Source: a virus
Taxonomy: Duplodnaviria > Heunggongvirae > Uroviricota > Caudoviricetes
Length of the DNA: 10,580 bases
Reading direction: 5' to 3' (one strand)
Virus record (IMG/VR): IMGVR_UViG_2602041863_000006
Part shown: positions 1 through 9,284 of the stretch, in pieces
Layout of the letters: each line of letters opens with the position of its first letter
How positions within the stretch are numbered: position 1 is the stretch's first letter
Notes under the pieces: generated by a model
Databases searched by the model: none
Seen by the model: only the letters and a program-made list of their open reading frames with translations
Told to the model about the DNA's origin: nothing
Program-made: the position numbers and the translations under genes

Positions 1-207
1 AGTTCCATTCCCCACCACCGTGCCACTTGATGCACCATCAAGCCAGTCGAAATTCATACCTCCACTGTTTGGTCTCCTTAATGGAACGGTATGTGTATGT
101 GCGCCAGCACTATTTGCAGTACCAGATACATTGTGGGTATCGCCATCATCGGTATCGGTGATGTCGTCCTCTGCGGGTCCGGGTTCAGTTCTGGCAACCA
201 TACTCAT
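1..207 (-). CDS. Hypothetical protein, N-terminal 69 codons only (gene runs off the left edge); Gly/Ser/Thr-rich with an AGAHTHT motif reminiscent of phage tail-fibre repeats
   Basis: ATG at 207..205 (minus) preceded by GGAG with an 8-nt spacer; the frame stays open to position 1; an in-frame stop lies upstream at 265-267. Translation: MSMVARTEPGPAEDDITDTDDGDTHNVSGTANSAGAHTHTVPLRRPNSGGMNFDWLDGASSGTVVGNGT. It does not resemble a P2 major capsid protein (gpN), which would be expected after O. Confidence 0.4.
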   Translation of the reverse strand, partial: MSMVARTEPGPAEDDITDTDDGDTHNVSGTANSAGAHTHTVPLRRPNSGGMNFDWLDGASSGTVVGNGT

Positions 208-302
208 GGGGTTCACTCCTGAAAAAAATCGGGCGGTGGGTGCGCGGTGTAAACGGTCACGGAGTCAAACCGGAACACCGCGCACGCCGCCCGCTGACGG
301 GG

Positions 303-890
303 TCAGTCGTTAATCCCCATTACGCGGTTAAACCACTGGGTGCCTTCTTCCTGGCGTTGTTCTGCCATTTCGATGATTTCAGACTCGATGGCTTCGGAAA
401 TGAGCGGTGCTTCACCCTGGACACTGTTGAACGTCATCACCGCCTGACGCTGCTGTGCCGTGAATTTCAGGCGCTCAGTGCCCAGGCTTGCCGGGGTGTC
501 GGTCATCGCCAGCCCGACCAGATAGGCGCGCCCGTTAACGGAGAACTGCGGGTGCAGTTCGATACTGGAATAGATTTTCTTGCCGTCCGCGACAAGCTGC
601 TTCATGCGCTCGGTCGGTTCGATTTCTGCATACAGCGCAGTACGTCCGGCCAGCGGACCTTCCGTAATGTCTTCCGTACTCAGTGCGGTGACATCGCCCA
701 TTGCGGAAAATTCGCTTGACGGGCATGGCGAGAGATAGTGCTCAACGTTCACGCGGGCAGCGTAAACATCCGGGTTGAAGTTCTCGGCGGCTTCACGCAG
801 ATGCACCGGACTGATTTCACGGCCATCAACAGTTGATCCGGAGACAGCCACGCGAAACTTTTTGCGGGATGTCTTTTTTTCATTAGCCAT
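303..890 (-). CDS. O: Capsid scaffolding protein, P2 gpO-like, apparently shortened (~195 aa versus ~284 aa in P2)
   Basis: ORF 303..923 (-). The N-terminal two-thirds (KKFRVAVSGSTVDGREIS...VEHY...YLVGLAMTDTPASLGTE) matches my recollection of P2 gpO. Preferred start is the ATG at 890..888, which has a GAGGGG Shine-Dalgarno 8 nt upstream; the ATG at 923 has none. The C-terminal tail is unlike gpO. Confidence 0.7.
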   Translation of the reverse strand: MANEKKTSRKKFRVAVSGSTVDGREISPVHLREAAENFNPDVYAARVNVEHYLSPCPSSEFSAMGDVTALSTEDITEGPLAGRTALYAEIEPTERMKQLVADGKKIYSSIELHPQFSVNGRAYLVGLAMTDTPASLGTERLKFTAQQRQAVMTFNSVQGEAPLISEAIESEIIEMAEQRQEEGTQWFNRVMGIND

Positions 891-923
891 AGTTTTTGCC
901 CCTCTGACTGGTTCTTCAGTCAT

Positions 924-4316: not shown

Positions 4317-4339
4317 GAAAAAAGGCCGCTTTCGCGGCC
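4317..4339 (-). terminator. Rho-independent terminator for the ATPase-peptidase operon
   Basis: GGCCGC-tttc-GCGGCC hairpin (4324-4339) followed on the minus strand by a run of 7 T (complement of 4317-4323). It lies 8 bp past the peptidase stop (4347-4349). Confidence 0.6.
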
Positions 4340-4346
4340 ATAAAAA

Positions 4347-6551
4347 TTACGTGTCGAGAGAAATTTGTGTGCGCAGTTGAATAGGATTCAGAATTGTATA
4401 TCGCTGGCGAATAACATTATATAAATCAAAGTCTTTTACCCTTACGCTTATTACCATCGCATATTGCATATCAGGGGCTGAAACTCCCTTAACATGGCGC
4501 GAAGAATCTCGGGCATGATACCGTATATCAAAAACTGGATCGCTTAATAATGTATCAGCACTGAACTTTTTGCTTCTGTGCAAACAAGTTTCCCACTTAT
4601 GACCTTCACTCCTACACTCCCTTTCAGTCTTATACTGGCTTTTTTGACCAAAGAAATCATCTGTATCGGTATCGTCAAGGCCGAATCTTGGGCGGAAAGT
4701 TACCTGCATACCGGCCCTTGTATAGTTTACTGAATGTTCAGGATCTACTGGGGTTTGAATGCATAAAGTAGCGGTAAGCTCAAATGCTTCGTCAAAGGGA
4801 ACATCAGGGAATGGGATCGGTGCCCTTAAATATTTATTTTTTGCTAATGAACCATAGTAAATTACTGTAGCAGTATCATTTGGACAATCGATTAAAACGT
4901 TAGGATCCTCACTAAACCGTCCCCAACCGATATGTTCACGCGAATATTTTCTTGATGTTTCAGCATGATGAACAAGCAACGCTTTCAATGCAATGGTGTT
5001 CAATGGAGTTCCTGATAGAGCCGCAACTCCAGCGGCCGTTCTCAATGCTAATGGAGAGGCATAACTGGTTCCTTGAACTCCAACTATAGAACCAAGCAAA
5101 GGGTTGTAAGTGTAAAAAGGCTCGTCGTCGCTTCCACCAAAAATAACACCATCAGGTTTAACGAATCCGGGGCTTCTGCCTGGGCCAATACAGCTATATG
5201 GTGCCCGCCCCCATTTTTCACCGCTACGATCAGCAGCACCAATCGCTAGCGCGTTTACCATATCGGAAGGAGGTTGTATTCTCGCTGCATCACCGTCCTC
5301 ATTGCCATCATTCCCAACAGCAACAGTAAGTAATATCCCATGCTTAGCACAGATTTGGTCTAAAACAGCAGTCCATACATGAACCTCATCATCACCAATT
5401 GGAAGATGAGGACCAATACTTAGATTAGCGAACTTATAGTCACCACTATCAAGAACGGACTGTATTTTCTTAAGGACATCAAATAAATCCCAATTGCCAT
5501 TGTCACCTGATGTCGGTGAAAGAACTCTATAATGATCTACATTCATAAACGGTCTTTTAAAAGAAGGTGCATTTTCCTCGACACGTCCGAATAAGAAAGT
5601 GGATGTTACTTCATTACCGTGCTGCAATAATAATCCGCTTGTTTCTTTGGTGTCTGGATACACGTATTCCGTAACCCAATTACTCAAGTCAGCTGTCCCC
5701 AAGCCACCATCAAAAATGGCAATACGTTCGGATTCAAGAACAGCTTTAGAATTAGGGAGCTCCGGTGTAACTATATTAGATAACTTTCTGACAATGTTCG
5801 GCTGAGTACACCTGAGAGACGGCATCGGCCGCACAACGCGGATTAATGAAAAATCGAGTGTTTTTTTCATATCTTCAGGTCGCGCGTGTGCAACGATGAA
5901 AGTCAGTCCACCAACTTGGATTCTACTTTTGTAATCAACAGAGACACCATATTGTGCCGCATAGCTAATATAGGCTTTAACGATATCATCGTCTTCAACC
6001 CCAGCATGAAGAACCACTTCAAATTTTATCAAATCACTTTTCGCATGCTCAAAATTGCGTGCTCTCTCTTTTCCTTCAAAAAAGCTAACACTTTCAATTT
6101 CGATCAAATCCTTTTGTACGCCCTTCGGAGCTGTAGGGGAATTTAAAATTTCCTTAAATCTTATAACGGCATCATCATCACCGCTAACAAACAGTTGCGC
6201 CGTTACTAAGTCCTTATTCTGATCGCACTGACGTGCCGCTTTCCGTGGGCGAATGATTACCTGACGGCTACCGACATCCCGTAAACCTGTCGCTCTAAGT
6301 AATCCTTCCGGAAAGTAGCTTTTACCCAAAAACGCTGGGTGTAAAGTTAAATTGAATACACTCTCCCCCCTTGGCTTAGCCGCATCATCCAAACTGCGAA
6401 AGCGTGAGAGTAAAGTATCAATCTCTGGGTTTAAATGCTCCCTTACTTCTTCAAGAGTATAGGGATAGCGCTTACCATCCCTTCCTTTAGGCAAAGGTTC
6501 CTTTTTTGTCAGAACATGACCGTTACCTAAAAGTAAGTTCCTTTCCATCAT
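4347..6551 (-). CDS. ietS: Subtilisin-like (S8) serine peptidase, 734 aa, with a ~270-aa N-terminal region and ~200-aa C-terminal region of unknown function; candidate effector of an IetAS-like defence pair
   Basis: Catalytic triad motifs in subtilase order and spacing: Asp in IAIFDGGLG (D281), His in LLQHGNEVTS (H311), oxyanion Asn in AVGNDGN (N414), Ser in GTSYASPLAL (S496, codon complement of 5064-5066). The start ATG overlaps the upstream ATPase stop (ATGATG, 6546-6551) with GGGGG 8 nt upstream. AT-rich codon usage unlike the flanking phage genes. Gene symbol is from recall of the Gao et al. 2020 system and is unverified. Confidence 0.85.
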   Translation of the reverse strand: MMERNLLLGNGHVLTKKEPLPKGRDGKRYPYTLEEVREHLNPEIDTLLSRFRSLDDAAKPRGESVFNLTLHPAFLGKSYFPEGLLRATGLRDVGSRQVIIRPRKAARQCDQNKDLVTAQLFVSGDDDAVIRFKEILNSPTAPKGVQKDLIEIESVSFFEGKERARNFEHAKSDLIKFEVVLHAGVEDDDIVKAYISYAAQYGVSVDYKSRIQVGGLTFIVAHARPEDMKKTLDFSLIRVVRPMPSLRCTQPNIVRKLSNIVTPELPNSKAVLESERIAIFDGGLGTADLSNWVTEYVYPDTKETSGLLLQHGNEVTSTFLFGRVEENAPSFKRPFMNVDHYRVLSPTSGDNGNWDLFDVLKKIQSVLDSGDYKFANLSIGPHLPIGDDEVHVWTAVLDQICAKHGILLTVAVGNDGNEDGDAARIQPPSDMVNALAIGAADRSGEKWGRAPYSCIGPGRSPGFVKPDGVIFGGSDDEPFYTYNPLLGSIVGVQGTSYASPLALRTAAGVAALSGTPLNTIALKALLVHHAETSRKYSREHIGWGRFSEDPNVLIDCPNDTATVIYYGSLAKNKYLRAPIPFPDVPFDEAFELTATLCIQTPVDPEHSVNYTRAGMQVTFRPRFGLDDTDTDDFFGQKSQYKTERECRSEGHKWETCLHRSKKFSADTLLSDPVFDIRYHARDSSRHVKGVSAPDMQYAMVISVRVKDFDLYNVIRQRYTILNPIQLRTQISLDT

Positions 6552-7630
6552 TTAATCCCCCACTTTTGTAATTTATTCGCGATTGTTGGATGTGAAACAC
6601 CAACTAATTCAGCTATCTTCCTATTTGAAAAACCGTCAAAATGATATTTAATTATATTGAGATCATTATCGCTAAATTCATCCAATGAAACCCTCTCCGT
6701 AATTACGGCTTCTATTAATGAGCTTTCAAATGGAATATTTCTAAGTACCTCATTCTTTTTGGAGAAATTCAAAATACGGTTAATGATGGCAAAGGACATG
6801 CCATCTAATAATGGTGCAAGTTTTTTAGATAGTTCAGGTTCAATATTATGATTGACTAAATATCTATCTATCAGTTCTACTGATGGCATATTAAATTTAA
6901 GGATGTGCTCAAATCGACGCCAAACAGCCGGATCTAAGATATCAGGGTGATTAGTCGCAGCAACAAGAAGCGAGGTCGCTGGCCACTCATCTATGGTCTG
7001 TAGGAGTACAGTAACTAAACGTTTTAATTCTCCAACGTCCCTGTCATCATCACGTCTTTTTGCAACAGCATCAAATTCATCAAGCAAAAGGACACATGGT
7101 TTCTCTTTGGCATAATCCATAACGGATTTAATATTATTACCTGTTTTTCCCAAAAGAGAACTCATTACAGATGAGAGATCCAATGTTAAAAGAGGTAAAT
7201 TTAACTTTGCAGCAAGCCAATGTGCGGACATTGTTTTGCCTACGCCTGGCGGGCCAGAAAGTAAAACCGTCTTCACAGGTTCAAGACCAGCTTTGAACAA
7301 AGAAACAGCATTCTCTCTTTCGTTAACAATTGACTCCAGCTTCTTTGAGATATCCGTATTCCATACAGGTTCTTCAACAATTGCGTTGACAGATGTTTCC
7401 TGCAAAAGGTTTCGTCTGGAGTCTCCATCCACAGGCATAGGAGCCTTACTAGATGCCCCACGTAATACTGTTCCCTCAGCAATTAACGAAGCCAGCTTAG
7501 AAGCTAAAGCCTCATCATTTTTACGGATGTTGTTAATCATCTTTCTGCATAGGAGTGTAAATGCATTTGCGTTGCCTTTGATGCCTTGCTCGATGAGTTT
7601 GAAAAGTTCATCCTCCCTCACGTTTACCAT
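6548..7630 (-). CDS. ietA: AAA+ ATPase (classical AAA clade) with C-terminal helix-turn-helix; candidate ATPase partner of an IetAS-like defence pair
   Basis: Walker A GPPGVGKT (complement of 7232-7255), Walker B VLLLDEFD, sensor and Arg-rich segment (ATNHPDILDPAVWRRFE), C-terminal HTH-like NRKIAELVGVSHPTIANKLQK. Preferred start is the ATG at 7630 (MVNVRE...), which has GGGGG upstream; the ORF-track start at 7675 has no Shine-Dalgarno. Gene symbol is from recall and is unverified. Confidence 0.85.
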   Translation of the reverse strand: MVNVREDELFKLIEQGIKGNANAFTLLCRKMINNIRKNDEALASKLASLIAEGTVLRGASSKAPMPVDGDSRRNLLQETSVNAIVEEPVWNTDISKKLESIVNERENAVSLFKAGLEPVKTVLLSGPPGVGKTMSAHWLAAKLNLPLLTLDLSSVMSSLLGKTGNNIKSVMDYAKEKPCVLLLDEFDAVAKRRDDDRDVGELKRLVTVLLQTIDEWPATSLLVAATNHPDILDPAVWRRFEHILKFNMPSVELIDRYLVNHNIEPELSKKLAPLLDGMSFAIINRILNFSKKNEVLRNIPFESSLIEAVITERVSLDEFSDNDLNIIKYHFDGFSNRKIAELVGVSHPTIANKLQKWGIK

Positions 7631-7934
7631 AAAACCCCCAATAAAACATAAGCTTGTGTAAGCTGGTAACTGCATTGATGAAAATCAGTGCCTAATGTTA
7701 CCACTCTTGCTGGCGTTATTCAAAGAGTATCCTCACTTTTTTACTGTATGGATAATCAGCATAAAATCTATCCAGTTGGGTTACTCGAACATATTGTCAA
7801 TACTTGTTTCCAACGATTGATCAGTTCTACAGTTTTATCTCCTTCACTTGTGTTGGCAGCATGCTTATTCCTGAACCAGCTCGATTACTTGGCCATTTGA
7901 GAAAGATGTGTAGATCTTCTGATGGTTTGTATTG

Positions 7935-7965
7935 GAACGGGGTGCATAGTGATTTGCACCCCGTT
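7935..7965. other. GC-rich inverted repeat between parR and the AT-rich island; possible bidirectional terminator or boundary element
   Basis: AACGGGGTGCA-tagtgattt-TGCACCCCGTT, followed on the + strand by TCTTTATGTT. A second short palindrome CAGGGCG-aata-CGCCCTG at 7988-8005 sits just past the parR stop. Confidence 0.35.
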
Positions 7966-8008
7966 CTTTATGTTATGGGATTGGTGGCAGGGCGAATACG
8001 CCCTGATG

Positions 8009-8320
8009 TTATTCAGGAAATAACGCCCGGATATTTCCGGCCATCTGACTGGTTATCTGTGCGGTTGGTACTGGCTGTGACTCGGGGCGTTCTGTCCTGG
8101 TTTGTGTCACTGATAACGTCTCATCGTCAGCCCATGCAGCCAGTCGGTAAGCCTCTGCCGGATTCATTTTCAGAAGTGCCAGCCCGGCCAGAAAAGCCAC
8201 GCGTTGGCCGCTTTTGCGGGCTTCTGGTGTAAGGCTGTCCAGCCATGTGCATGCTTCGCCTTCGTTCTTGACGGCGGCGGGCTTCAGATAGAAACTTATC
8301 CGTCTGGTTGGTGTCGTCAT
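8009..8320 (-). CDS. parR: ParR-like small centromere-binding protein (103 aa)
   Basis: ATG at 8320..8318 preceded by AAGGAG; starts 4 nt after the parM stop, as in plasmid R1 parM-parR. Weak similarity to R1 ParR in the N-terminal part (RRISFYLKP...GLALL). The ORF-track start at 8455 overlaps parM and is rejected. Confidence 0.6.
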   Translation of the reverse strand: MTTPTRRISFYLKPAAVKNEGEACTWLDSLTPEARKSGQRVAFLAGLALLKMNPAEAYRLAAWADDETLSVTQTRTERPESQPVPTAQITSQMAGNIRALFPE

Positions 8321-8324
8321 TGGT

Positions 8325-9284
8325 TTACTCCTTGTCCATTGCGTACAGCCCATTAACCAGAGCAAACTGTGGCACTCCGTCCGCGATGAAAGTCGCATTA
8401 ACTCCGCAGGCTTCGCGGATAGCGGGTGCCACAATCTCCGCCCCTCCACCGACAACCATCACCCGCCCGTAACCCGAAAAAACCGCCAGCGCGCGGATCA
8501 CGCGTTGTTTCAGTGTTTCTTCCTTTTCACGAATAACCGCCATCAGGCTGTTGTAATGCGCGTCATTGTGGATGTGCCGGCGCAGCCAGGCTTCATCATG
8601 GCGATGTTCGATAATGGTATTGGCGATGTGGTGACTGGTACGCATACCGTTAGTGGCCATCACCGACAGTACGGCATCGGCCATCAGGGAAACGCCTACG
8701 TGTGGATCGCAAAACACCTGGCTGATACCTGCCAGTTGTCCCTGAACCTTTGCCACATCCAGCGTGGTTCCTCCTAAATCCACAATCAGCAGGGATTCAA
8801 ACGGACTCATGTCAGCCAGTGCTTTAAAGCCAGCCGGAATGGATTCAGGCATAACCCGCACGTTACGGATAGTGAATGCCTCACCGTTCTGGTACTCCAC
8901 CGGGCGCATAACGTTCGCTTTTTTGCGGTTGATGTTGGCCATGTCCGGCTGTGCGTTTGTGTCGAAATATTCGCTCAGTGGCAGGGTGACAACCACATCC
9001 ACCTCCTGTGGTGTGATGCCTGATTTGACCAGCGCGTGGTGAATGGCGATTACATTCACATCGCTGTACTGGTATTGCGTGTCGGTTGTCTGGACAAAGC
9101 GATCGCTGACCGGATCAAAACCATAGCGCACGCCATCAAGCATGTAGTTCGCAGGCTGCGAGCCGCCGAACGGCGCAGACCATTCCGACTTGAAGCTGTT
9201 CGGGCTGATGGCGTTGCGGCGTTCGCCGTTCTCAGTCCATGCCAGCTTGATGTTGGTGGAGCCGTCGTCGATACAAATTTTCAT
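8325..9284 (-). CDS. parM: ParM/StbA-like actin-type plasmid segregation ATPase (319 aa)
   Basis: N-terminus MKICIDDGSTNIKLAW...ISPNSFKSEW...YQYSDVNVIAIHHAL closely resembles plasmid R1 ParM (from recall). Size matches R1 ParM (~320 aa). AGGAAA Shine-Dalgarno 6 nt upstream of the ATG. Confidence 0.85.
   Translation of the reverse strand: MKICIDDGSTNIKLAWTENGERRNAISPNSFKSEWSAPFGGSQPANYMLDGVRYGFDPVSDRFVQTTDTQYQYSDVNVIAIHHALVKSGITPQEVDVVVTLPLSEYFDTNAQPDMANINRKKANVMRPVEYQNGEAFTIRNVRVMPESIPAGFKALADMSPFESLLIVDLGGTTLDVAKVQGQLAGISQVFCDPHVGVSLMADAVLSVMATNGMRTSHHIANTIIEHRHDEAWLRRHIHNDAHYNSLMAVIREKEETLKQRVIRALAVFSGYGRVMVVGGGAEIVAPAIREACGVNATFIADGVPQFALVNGLYAMDKE

What the first reader, a model, noticed from the sequence alone, without database searches (positions are those of the whole stretch)
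6560..6643. C-terminal sigma-70 region-4/LuxR-like helix-turn-helix on the AAA+ ATPase
The last ~45 residues (LDEFSDNDLNIIKYHFDGFSNRKIAELVGVSHPTIANKLQKWGIK) have the pattern of a DNA-binding HTH. An ATPase fused to a DNA-binding module suggests the ATPase either senses nucleic acid or autoregulates the operon. I do not recall whether canonical IetA carries such a domain, so this could be a variant architecture.
Basis: inference. Interest (0 to 1): 0.5.

Follow-up and report, generated by a model that had tools for sequence, protein, structure and literature searches.

The report
DNA-binding tail on IetA defence ATPase
The last 45 residues of this prophage-borne IetA ATPase are a real helix-turn-helix DNA-binding domain, shared by most long IetA proteins, and comparative evidence suggests it binds a repeat in the operon's own promoter to keep the toxic protease operon in check.

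Summary
Window 6551-6685 (- strand) encodes a three-helix HTH that follows the AAA+ lid of IetA. It is the first gene of an ietA-ietS (AAA+ ATPase / S8 protease) toxin-antitoxin and anti-phage operon, sitting in the cargo hotspot of a P2-like E. coli prophage.

The isolated tail passes Pfam HTH_50 (TyrR type, 29.9 bits against a cut-off of 27) and matches the TyrR DNA-binding domain 1G2H (E 7.7e-6). Sigma-70 region 4 and LuxR matches are weaker and below threshold.

This is not a rare variant. All complete related ietAS loci I fetched, from many phyla, carry the HTH, and the PADLOC and NCBIfam anti-phage IetA models span it. The short pTiC58-type IetA and several plasmid forms lack it.

Upstream of ietA lies an inverted repeat, TGGnnnn-N23-26-nnnnCCA. 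It occurs in 18 of 41 and 51 of 82 non-redundant loci, against about 1 and 2.6 in shuffles. Its half-site sequence changes together with the recognition helix. The window has TGGTAAC-N26-GTTACCA (7703-7664), overlapping a candidate promoter.

The best explanation is that IetA represses its own operon. This is inferred from sequence only and has not been shown experimentally. The object is an ordinary member of a known system; the operator prediction is the useful new part.

The parts
6548..7630 (-). ietA coding sequence, 360 aa from the ATG at 7630. RefSeq annotates a 375-aa form starting at 7675.
   Evidence: The ORF is. PADLOC IetA PDLC02196 scores E 2.9e-89 and Pfam AAA scores 1e-30. Homologues begin with 'MV...' at this ATG, and the 15-aa extension is not conserved. 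GGGGG lies 5-9 nt upstream of 7630. The operator arm at 7664-7670 would fall inside the longer reading.
6551..6685 (-). C-terminal helix-turn-helix domain, residues 316-360 (331-375 in the 375-aa numbering). This is the finding.
   Evidence: Pfam HTH_50 scores 29.9 bits on the isolated tail. PDB 1G2H (TyrR) matches at E 7.7e-6. The AF2 model has three helices here. The domain is conserved in all long-form IetA.
6563..6592 (-). Predicted recognition helix (third helix, residues 347-356: HPTIANKLQK).
   Evidence: AF2 secondary structure. H347, P348 and T349 are at least 90% conserved in the close clade. The sequence class of this helix co-varies with the upstream half-site.
6890..7267 (-). Classical-clade AAA+ ATPase core, with Walker A GPPGVGKT and Walker B LLLDEFD.
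   Evidence: Pfam PF00004 scores E 1e-30. The best PDB sequence and fold matches are p97 D2, Rpt subunits, PAN and FtsH.
7697..7703 (-). Left arm of the predicted IetA operator, TGGTAAC, 73 nt upstream of the start codon. It overlaps the candidate extended -10.
   Evidence: The arm is invariant in 72-100% relatives while the flanks diverge.
7664..7670 (-). Right arm of the predicted operator, GTTACCA, 26 nt downstream of the left arm.
   Evidence: A relative with 85% identity (L093) has TGGTAAG/CTTACCA, which keeps the symmetry through changes on both arms.
7623..7629 (-). Third TGGTAAA half-site, overlapping the start codon (ATGGTAAAC). It may be an extra site or a by-product of the conserved Met-Val start.
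   Evidence: Some SRDT-class loci have an analogous GGACTA immediately before the ATG.
7695..7723 (-). Candidate sigma-70 promoter of ietAS: TTGAAT-N17-TAACAT with a TG extension. This is an inference.
   Evidence: Read. The -35 and -10 blocks are conserved while the spacer varies at constant length in relatives. The strict consensus scan did not call it.
4347..6551 (-). ietS, the S8 subtilase-family protease (toxin/effector). It overlaps the ietA stop codon by 4 nt (ATGA).
   Evidence: Pfam Peptidase_S8 scores 4e-17 and PADLOC IetS scores 5.7e-41. The overlap is visible. An S8 gene lies immediately downstream of ietA in all related loci.
4324..4339 (-). Terminator-like hairpin after ietS: GGCCGCGAAAGCGGCC followed by a T run.

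Best explanation
IetA is the AAA+ antitoxin/regulator subunit of an IetAS toxin-antitoxin and abortive-infection module carried as cargo by a P2-like prophage. Its C-terminal three-helix HTH is a sequence-specific DNA-binding domain. It recognises an inverted repeat, TGGTAAC-N26-GTTACCA, that overlaps the ietAS promoter and 5' leader. Binding by the IetA oligomer would repress transcription of ietA-ietS, as DNA-binding antitoxins do in type II TA modules, and so hold the level of the toxic S8 protease IetS low and balanced.

Shown here, by computation: the HTH fold, its conservation, the operator-like repeats, their position, and their co-variation with the recognition helix.

Inferred: that IetA itself binds them, that binding represses, and that the roughly 30-33 bp between half-site centres means two distant HTHs of an oligomer engage one face of the DNA.
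For: (1) HTH identity.

(2) K-mer enrichment in the 150 nt upstream of ietA, using non-redundant loci:
- In the clade with an S[HR]PT[IV]-type recognition helix (41 loci, including the window), TGGTAA/TTACCA occurs 46 times. Locus background predicts 3.0, and dinucleotide shuffles give 5.2 +/- 2.2.
- In the SRDTIRK clade (82 loci), GGACTA/TAGTCC occurs 84 times against 2.4-3.7 expected.
- Each motif occurs only once in the other clade.

(3) Sites peak at -100 to -50 and form TGGnnnn-N(23-26)-nnnnCCA inverted repeats. These are present in 18 of 41 loci (1.0 +/- 0.9 in shuffles) and 51 of 82 loci (2.6 +/- 1.6).

(4) Half-site and recognition helix change together:
- SRDTIRK goes with TGGACT or TGGACG.
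- A-R-[ED]-T-I-R goes with TGGAAG (11 loci).
- S[HR]PT[VI] goes with TGGTAA or TGGTAC.
- SHTTV goes with TGGAAC.
- AHTTV goes with TGGTGC.

(5) In the SRDT class the right arm sits between a TTGACA-like -35 and the -10. In the window the left arm overlaps a conserved TG-extended -10.

(6) In 72-100% relatives the arms are conserved while the spacer diverges, and L093 shows a symmetric change on both arms.

(7) No other conserved gene accompanies ietAS. The largest upstream-ORF cluster covers 12 of 112 loci and is the phage replication gene. IetA is therefore the only conserved DNA-binding candidate.

(8) The four short, HTH-less IetA loci examined have no such repeat.

(9) Literature: IetA is the antitoxin and an inactive ietA could not be cloned (PMC13069673). 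IetAS acts by abortive infection.
Against: - There is no experimental binding or expression data.
- About half of the loci in the window's clade, and a third in the other clade, show no repeat under my criteria.
- In the window the left arm coincides with an extended -10 (TGnTAAnAT), so part of its conservation could be promoter constraint.
- The window spacing (outer span 40 bp) differs by 3 bp from the SRDT class (37 bp).
- Promoter assignments are by eye, and the consensus scan did not call them.
- Co-inheritance of promoter and gene inflates the counts, although the upstream regions were de-duplicated and are otherwise unalignable.
- The wide half-site separation is unusual for a simple dimeric repressor.
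Confidence: 0.68

Rival explanations
1. The HTH is an infection sensor or a tether. IetA binds phage or replicating DNA, or is parked on DNA, and a change in DNA binding during infection switches the ATPase and releases or activates IetS. Promoter binding would then be secondary or absent.
For: Phage escape mutants of a Bacillus IetAS map to replication-machinery genes, and the system acts by abortive infection. Half-sites about 3 helical turns apart would suit a large oligomer sitting on DNA. The recognition helix is very strongly conserved across phyla.
Against: The known trigger in Bacillus is expression of a phage protein, yosG, without phage DNA. The conserved motif is found specifically at the operon's own promoter and changes with the HTH class. 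That is what a cis-regulatory site predicts, not a foreign-DNA target. Short-form IetAS systems work as TA modules without any HTH (function known from the literature cited).
Confidence: 0.15
2. The upstream inverted repeats are recognised by something other than IetA (a host factor), or are promoter or structural elements. The HTH would then have a different ligand.
For: In the window the left arm coincides with a TG-extended -10. No binding data exist.
Against: The motifs occur in hosts from at least 10 phyla with no conserved accompanying gene. They are inverted repeats in both orientations at a fixed distance from ietA. Their sequence tracks the IetA recognition helix rather than host taxonomy.
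Confidence: 0.1
3. The tail has an HTH fold but serves protein-protein contact, for example docking IetS or ring assembly, and does not bind DNA.
For: Some HTH folds are used for protein contacts. No PAE or complex model was available to test packing.
Against: All significant sequence matches are to DNA-binding HTHs: TyrR, DeoR/SorC, Aca1, an IS21 transposase and FadR. Conservation is concentrated at the start of helix 2 and in the recognition helix. The operator co-variation is unexplained by this reading. Short-form IetA pairs with IetS without the tail.
Confidence: 0.05

Closest known systems
IetA/IetS of Ti plasmid pTiC58 (Yamamoto et al. 2009, J Bacteriol 191:4656; cited in PMC13069673)
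   Same: An AAA+ ATPase gene is followed directly by an S8 subtilase gene. The ATPase is the antitoxin and the protease the toxin. The AAA core is 32% identical. The PADLOC IetA and IetS models hit both.
   Different: The Ti-plasmid IetA (328 aa; locus L002 on a 214,233-bp Ti plasmid) ends where the window's HTH begins. It has no HTH hit and no TGG inverted repeat upstream. That L002 is the founding pair rests on my own knowledge of pTiC58.
Anti-phage IetAS ('IteA/IteS' in NCBIfam NF042959/NF042956; PADLOC PDLC02196/PDLC02195; Gao et al. 2020)
   Same: Same two-gene architecture and the same long-form IetA with a C-terminal HTH. The window protein aligns to positions 5-370 of 374 in PDLC02196 and 6-364 of 367 in NF042959. 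An Acidovorax plasmid gene annotated iteA has the same tail.
   Different: It scores only 252.8 bits against the 510-bit equivalog cut-off (IetS: 114.9 against 900), so it is a diverged subfamily. It has a different recognition helix (SHPTIANK against SQRQIRNA) and a different upstream repeat.
TyrR/NtrC-type bacterial enhancer-binding proteins (TyrR C-terminal domain, PDB 1G2H; Pfam HTH_50)
   Same: Same domain order: an AAA+ module followed by a small C-terminal Fis/TyrR-type HTH, in a protein that oligomerises and binds spaced sites near a promoter. 1G2H is the best PDB match of the tail (E 7.7e-6).
   Different: The AAA+ core belongs to the classical p97/FtsH/Rpt clade, not the sigma-54 activator clade (no Sigma54_activat hit). 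The predicted role is repression of its own sigma-70-type promoter, not sigma-54 activation.
DNA-binding antitoxins of type II toxin-antitoxin modules (e.g. HigA, MqsA, and Xre-HTH antitoxins)
   Same: The antitoxin carries an HTH and, as predicted here, binds a palindromic operator overlapping the promoter of its own bicistronic operon. The antitoxin gene comes first and the genes overlap.
   Different: Here the antitoxin is a 40-kDa AAA+ ATPase rather than a small labile protein, the toxin is a protease, and the half-sites lie about 30 bp apart instead of adjacent.

Membership tests
IetAS (IetA subunit) | Classical AAA+ ATPase with intact Walker A and Walker B motifs | tested here: met
   Pfam AAA scores E 1e-30. 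GPPGVGKT and LLLDEFD are invariant in the alignment.
IetAS (IetA subunit) | Match to curated IetA profile models | tested here: met
   PADLOC PDLC02196 scores E 2.9e-89 over residues 22-371, and PDLC02195 scores 5.7e-77.
IetAS (IetA subunit) | NCBIfam IteA_antiphage equivalog score of at least 510 bits | tested here: not met
   252.8 bits, aligned to positions 6-364 of 367. This makes it a family member by homology, but not an NCBI 'equivalog'.
IetAS (operon) | An S8 subtilase gene (IetS) immediately downstream in the same operon | tested here: met
   Peptidase_S8 scores 4e-17 and PADLOC IetS scores 5.7e-41. The genes overlap by 4 nt, ATGA.
IetAS (function) | Toxin-antitoxin behaviour and/or anti-phage protection | not testable with these tools
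   Known only from the literature for other members.
Helix-turn-helix DNA-binding domain (Pfam HTH clan; HTH_50 TyrR type) | Profile match at or above the curated threshold | tested here: met
   29.9 bits against a cut-off of 27 for the isolated 61-aa tail. The score is 26.6 within the full protein. Of 52 family tails, 30 hit HTH_23.
Helix-turn-helix DNA-binding domain (Pfam HTH clan; HTH_50 TyrR type) | Three-helix fold with a helix 2-turn-helix 3 unit | tested here: met
   AF2 with a 68-sequence alignment gives H321-331, H336-343 and H347-356 at pLDDT 76-83. A structure search with the isolated tail was inconclusive.
Helix-turn-helix DNA-binding domain (Pfam HTH clan; HTH_50 TyrR type) | Sequence-specific DNA binding | not testable with these tools
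   Indirect support only: promoter-proximal inverted repeats that co-vary with the recognition helix.
Sigma-70 region 4 / LuxR (GerE) HTH | Profile match at or above the curated threshold | tested here: not met
   Sigma70_r4_2 scores 15.8-18.9 bits against 25.7. GerE scores 12.9 against 23.5. The EvgA match in PDB has E 0.02.
Bacterial enhancer-binding proteins (NtrC/TyrR) | Sigma-54 interaction AAA+ domain (PF00158, GAFTGA loop) | tested here: not met
   There is no Sigma54_activat hit among 23 Pfam families. The core matches p97, FtsH and Rpt.
Autoregulated type II-like TA module | A palindromic operator overlapping the module's own promoter, bound by the antitoxin | tested here: inconclusive
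   The operator-like repeat is present and statistically supported. Binding and repression have not been tested.

The most novel reading that the evidence does not exclude
IetA is a DNA-mounted AAA+ machine. The hexamer sits on its operator through two distant HTHs, and occupancy of the DNA is coupled to its ATPase cycle and to its hold on IetS. A phage trigger would then both derepress the operon and release the protease. That would make this a TA/defence switch in which a classical-clade AAA+ unfoldase doubles as a sequence-specific transcription factor whose specificity code (recognition helix to TGGnnnn half-site) can be read from genomes.
Probability: 0.15. Interest if true: 0.7.

Novelty: new member of a known kind. 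Interest (0 to 1): 0.42.

Why it matters

Recognising that long-form IetA is also a DNA-binding protein, with a predictable operator, gives a concrete and cheap entry point. It offers defined probes, point mutants and helix/half-site swap experiments. It also explains how a lethal protease operon can be carried stably by a prophage.

It separates two architectural classes of IetA, with and without the HTH, that detection tools currently pool.

It also corrects the annotated start codon and the choice of probe for any binding assay.

Tried and rejected
- A structure search with the full AF2 model returned only AAA+ ATPases (p97, Rpt, FtsH). It says nothing about the tail, and no solved IetA structure exists in the PDB copy.
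- A single-sequence AF2 model of the 65-aa tail was poor (pLDDT 58). Foldseek gave nothing significant (best E 1.7). Fis and NtrC1 DNA-binding domains recur in the list, but I do not count this as evidence.
- A first scan for perfect palindromes with gaps of 15 nt or less missed the window's operator, whose gap is 26 nt. It was found only after k-mer enrichment.
- The generic promoter scan found no ietA promoter at 9/12 stringency.
- Gao et al. 2020 and Yamamoto et al. 2009 are not in the held library. I therefore could not read what the authors say about domains.
- I tried to recover the experimentally validated B. cereus m1293 IetA. The supplement holds only the first 500 nt. tblastn of its N-terminus against plasmids and phages found nothing, and the protein search returned only two fragments. 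Whether that particular validated IetA has the HTH stays open.
- I considered and rejected membership of the bEBP and sigma-70 r4/LuxR families (see the membership tests).
- I considered that a third conserved gene might encode the regulator. None was found.

Full report
**Context**

The window is part of a P2-like prophage of E. coli. It is 100% identical to NZ_CP024232.1, and the ietAS segment occurs in 34 of 5426 complete E. coli genomes, always on the chromosome. The phage genes are a truncated GPO scaffold gene, the large terminase and portal on one side, and StbB/ParM-like partition genes plus the replication endonuclease on the other.

Between portal and partition genes lies an AT-rich insert, about 38-45% GC against 52-56% in the flanks. 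It carries two - strand genes. One is an AAA+ ATPase (6548-7675 as annotated) and the other an S8 peptidase (4347-6551). They overlap by ATGA. PADLOC models identify them as IetA (E 2.9e-89) and IetS (E 5.7e-41).

According to the literature, IetAS was first described as a plasmid-stabilising toxin-antitoxin pair, with the protease as toxin and the ATPase as antitoxin, and later as an anti-phage system of unknown mechanism (PMC13069673). A Bacillus homologue acts by abortive infection and is triggered by expression of a phage protein (bioRxiv 10.1101/2022.08.27.505566).

**The observation**

The quoted C-terminal peptide is exactly what the ORF encodes. Coordinates 6560-6643 cover residues 345-372 of the 375-aa reading.

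- Profile searches call a helix-turn-helix. Pfam HTH_50 (the TyrR C-terminal type) scores E 4.9e-6 and 26.6 bits in the whole protein, and 29.9 bits (above the 27-bit cut-off) when the 61-aa tail is scanned alone. Weaker hits are HTH_38, Sigma70_r4_2, HTH_23 and GerE.
- NCBIfam's TyrR/PhhR HTH model scores 26.6 bits against a cut-off of 30.
- Against PDB sequences, the last 56 residues match the TyrR DNA-binding domain 1G2H (E 7.7e-6) and, weakly, EvgA.
- A profile built from 52 diverse family tails matches only DNA-binding HTH proteins: DeoR/SorC, Aca1, an IS21 transposase, TyrR and FadR.
- AlphaFold2 with a 68-sequence alignment (mean pLDDT 79.7) gives this layout: an N-terminal three-helix bundle (6-52), a disordered linker, the AAA+ core, lid helices (251-313), and then three short helices at 321-331, 336-343 and 347-356 with pLDDT 76-83.

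The tail is therefore a separate HTH domain after the lid, not the lid itself. 'Sigma-70 region 4 / LuxR-like' is only loosely right, because those models score below threshold.

**Is it a variant architecture?**

Homologues at 48-57% identity from Pseudomonas, Burkholderia, Ralstonia and others almost all carry precomputed HTH Pfam hits. I fetched 80 loci from species-representative genomes and 80 from viral contigs. They come from Proteobacteria, Acidobacteriota, Planctomycetota, Actinomycetota, Bacillota, Bacteroidota, Chlamydiota, Chloroflexota and other phyla.

Every complete locus encodes an IetA of about 355-410 aa whose alignment to the window protein runs into the HTH. Every one has an S8 protease gene starting within a few tens of bases of its stop codon. 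Isolated temperate phages carry it as well: Enterobacter phage phiT5282H at 97% identity, a Pseudomonas Pf phage, and Paenibacillus larvae phages.

The PADLOC models PDLC02196 and PDLC02195 and NCBIfam IteA_antiphage all extend through the tail.

Short forms exist too. The Ti-plasmid IetA (328 aa), a Klebsiella IncF-plasmid form (346 aa), a Bradyrhizobium form (356 aa) and an Enterobacter mori form (345 aa) all stop at about model position 314-329 of 374. None has a detectable HTH. On plasmids the short form appears to dominate: only 71 of 681 matching records cover at least 80% of the query.

There are therefore two IetA architectures, and the window carries the common long one.

**What the HTH does**

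I compared the 150 nt upstream of ietA in non-redundant loci with the rest of each locus and with dinucleotide shuffles.

Loci fall into two broad classes by recognition helix. One is 'SRDTIRK'. The other is the window's class, S[HR]PT[IV] and relatives.

- In the window's class (41 loci), TGGTAA/TTACCA occurs 46 times. Background predicts 3.0, and shuffles give 5.2 +/- 2.2 with a maximum of 11.
- In the SRDTIRK class (82 loci), GGACTA/TAGTCC occurs 84 times against 2.4-3.7 expected, and TGGACTA 67 times against 1.1.
- Each motif occurs once in the other class.

Sites peak 50-100 nt upstream of the start codon and occur in both orientations. They form a stereotyped inverted repeat, TGGnnnn-N(23-26)-nnnnCCA. 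It is found in 18 of 41 loci (shuffled 1.0 +/- 0.9) and 51 of 82 loci (shuffled 2.6 +/- 1.6). The left arm is often exactly 73 nt from the start codon.

The variable part of the half-site tracks the recognition helix:

| Recognition helix | Half-site |
|---|---|
| SRDTIRK | TGGACT / TGGACG |
| A-R-[ED]-T-I-R | TGGAAG (11 loci) |
| S[HR]PT[VI] | TGGTAA / TGGTAC |
| SHTTV | TGGAAC |
| AHTTV | TGGTGC |
| THPTVS | TGGAAA |

In the SRDTIRK class the right arm lies between a TTGACA-like -35 and the -10, which is a classic repressor position. No other gene is conserved next to ietAS. The four short, HTH-less loci show no such repeat.

**In the window**

Three of the window's eight TGGTAA sites cluster within 80 nt at the 5' end of ietA:

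- TGGTAAC at 7703-7697;
- GTTACCA at 7670-7664, after a 26-nt gap;
- TGGTAAA across the start codon at 7629-7623.

The left arm overlaps a candidate promoter, TTGAAT-N17-TAACAT with a TG extension (read).

Among relatives with 72-100% IetA identity, the -35, the left arm/-10, the right arm and the RBS/start are conserved, while the sequences between them diverge. One relative (L093) has TGGTAAG/CTTACCA, a matched change on both arms.

These features also argue that translation starts at 7630 (360 aa, preceded by GGGGG). Most database entries and all distant homologues use that start. The alternative, 7675, lies inside the operator spacer.

**Mechanism and its limits**

The best-supported reading is that the HTH lets IetA repress its own operon, as DNA-binding antitoxins do.

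The 29-33 bp between half-site centres implies that two well-separated HTHs, probably from one AAA+ oligomer, contact one face of the DNA. That step is inference.

Binding, repression and the promoter position are untested. The left arm's overlap with a -10-like element is a caveat, and many loci lack a detectable repeat.

A sensing or tethering role for the HTH cannot be excluded. It is less favoured because the conserved target lies at the operon's own promoter and because the known Bacillus trigger is a protein.

**Novelty and verdict**

The object is an ordinary long-form member of a known defence/TA family. The HTH is implicit in existing profile models. However, no paper in the searchable library discusses an HTH in IetA; the only two co-occurrences of the terms are in unrelated Ea22 papers.

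The operator prediction and the helix/half-site correspondence are, as far as I can tell, new and directly testable. Interest is moderate.

Noticed in passing
window 7630-7675 (- strand): RefSeq annotates ietA as 375 aa from the ATG at 7675. Most database copies (360 aa) and all distant homologues start at the ATG at 7630 ('MVN...'), which has a GGGGG Shine-Dalgarno 5-9 nt upstream. The 15-aa extension is not conserved, and the predicted operator arm lies inside it.
   Followed up: yes
window 7411-7434 (- strand; IetA residues 66-73 of the 360-aa form): A near-invariant motif, P-V-D-G-D-S-R-R (P66 and D68 invariant), sits at the end of a linker predicted to be disordered (pLDDT about 41), between the N-terminal helical bundle and the AAA+ core. 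It is present even in the short pTiC58-type protein as P-V. It could be an IetS-contact or pseudo-substrate segment.
   Followed up: partly
window 6557-6561 (- strand): The Shine-Dalgarno of ietS (GGGGG, 5-9 nt before its ATG) lies inside the codons for the last residues of the HTH tail (K-W-G-I-K), and the two genes overlap by ATGA. The end of the tail is therefore under dual coding and translational-coupling constraint.
   Followed up: partly
window 7934-7967: A perfect 12-bp-stem hairpin (GAACGGGGTGCA...TGCACCCCGTTC) lies between the stbB-like gene and the ietA promoter. The T run follows it on the + strand, opposite to the flanking genes. It could insulate the cargo from antisense or read-through transcription, or mark the hotspot boundary.
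   Followed up: no
window 7737-7760 (- strand): A block, GCTGATTATCCATACAGTAAAAA, about 110-130 nt upstream of ietA is conserved in relatives down to 72% IetA identity while neighbouring sequence diverges. Its function is unknown. It could be a second promoter, a second binding site or the cargo boundary.
   Followed up: no
window 1-923 and locus L001 4414-5591: The prophage looks defective. The GPO scaffold gene is annotated as truncated (C-terminus missing). It abuts the head-completion gene, with no major capsid (gpN-like) or small terminase (gpM-like) gene between them. A virion morphogenesis gene further on is also a fragment.
   Followed up: partly
window 8009-9284 (- strand): A ParM actin-like segregation ATPase (StbA_N E 2e-82) and a StbB-like 'plasmid stability' protein sit between the phage replication gene and the defence cargo. 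This is a plasmid-type partition module inside a P2-like integrated prophage.
   Followed up: no
loci L099-L104 and L012/L108-L112 (upstream of ietA): Sub-clades with other recognition helices have their own upstream repeats. The Pasteurellaceae-like ISRSQV/IPRTQV helices go with repeated TGGTTC/TGGTTG. The Burkholderia MAHTTVGR helix goes with TGGTGCG-N26-TGCACCA plus a nested ATGCAC-N3-GTGCAT palindrome. This extends the helix/half-site correspondence.
   Followed up: partly
locus L002 3143-3736 (Ti plasmid): In the HTH-less Ti-plasmid locus, a DUF6088 family gene lies about 250 nt upstream of ietA on the same strand. I did not check whether it supplies a separate DNA-binding regulator for short-form systems.
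   Followed up: no
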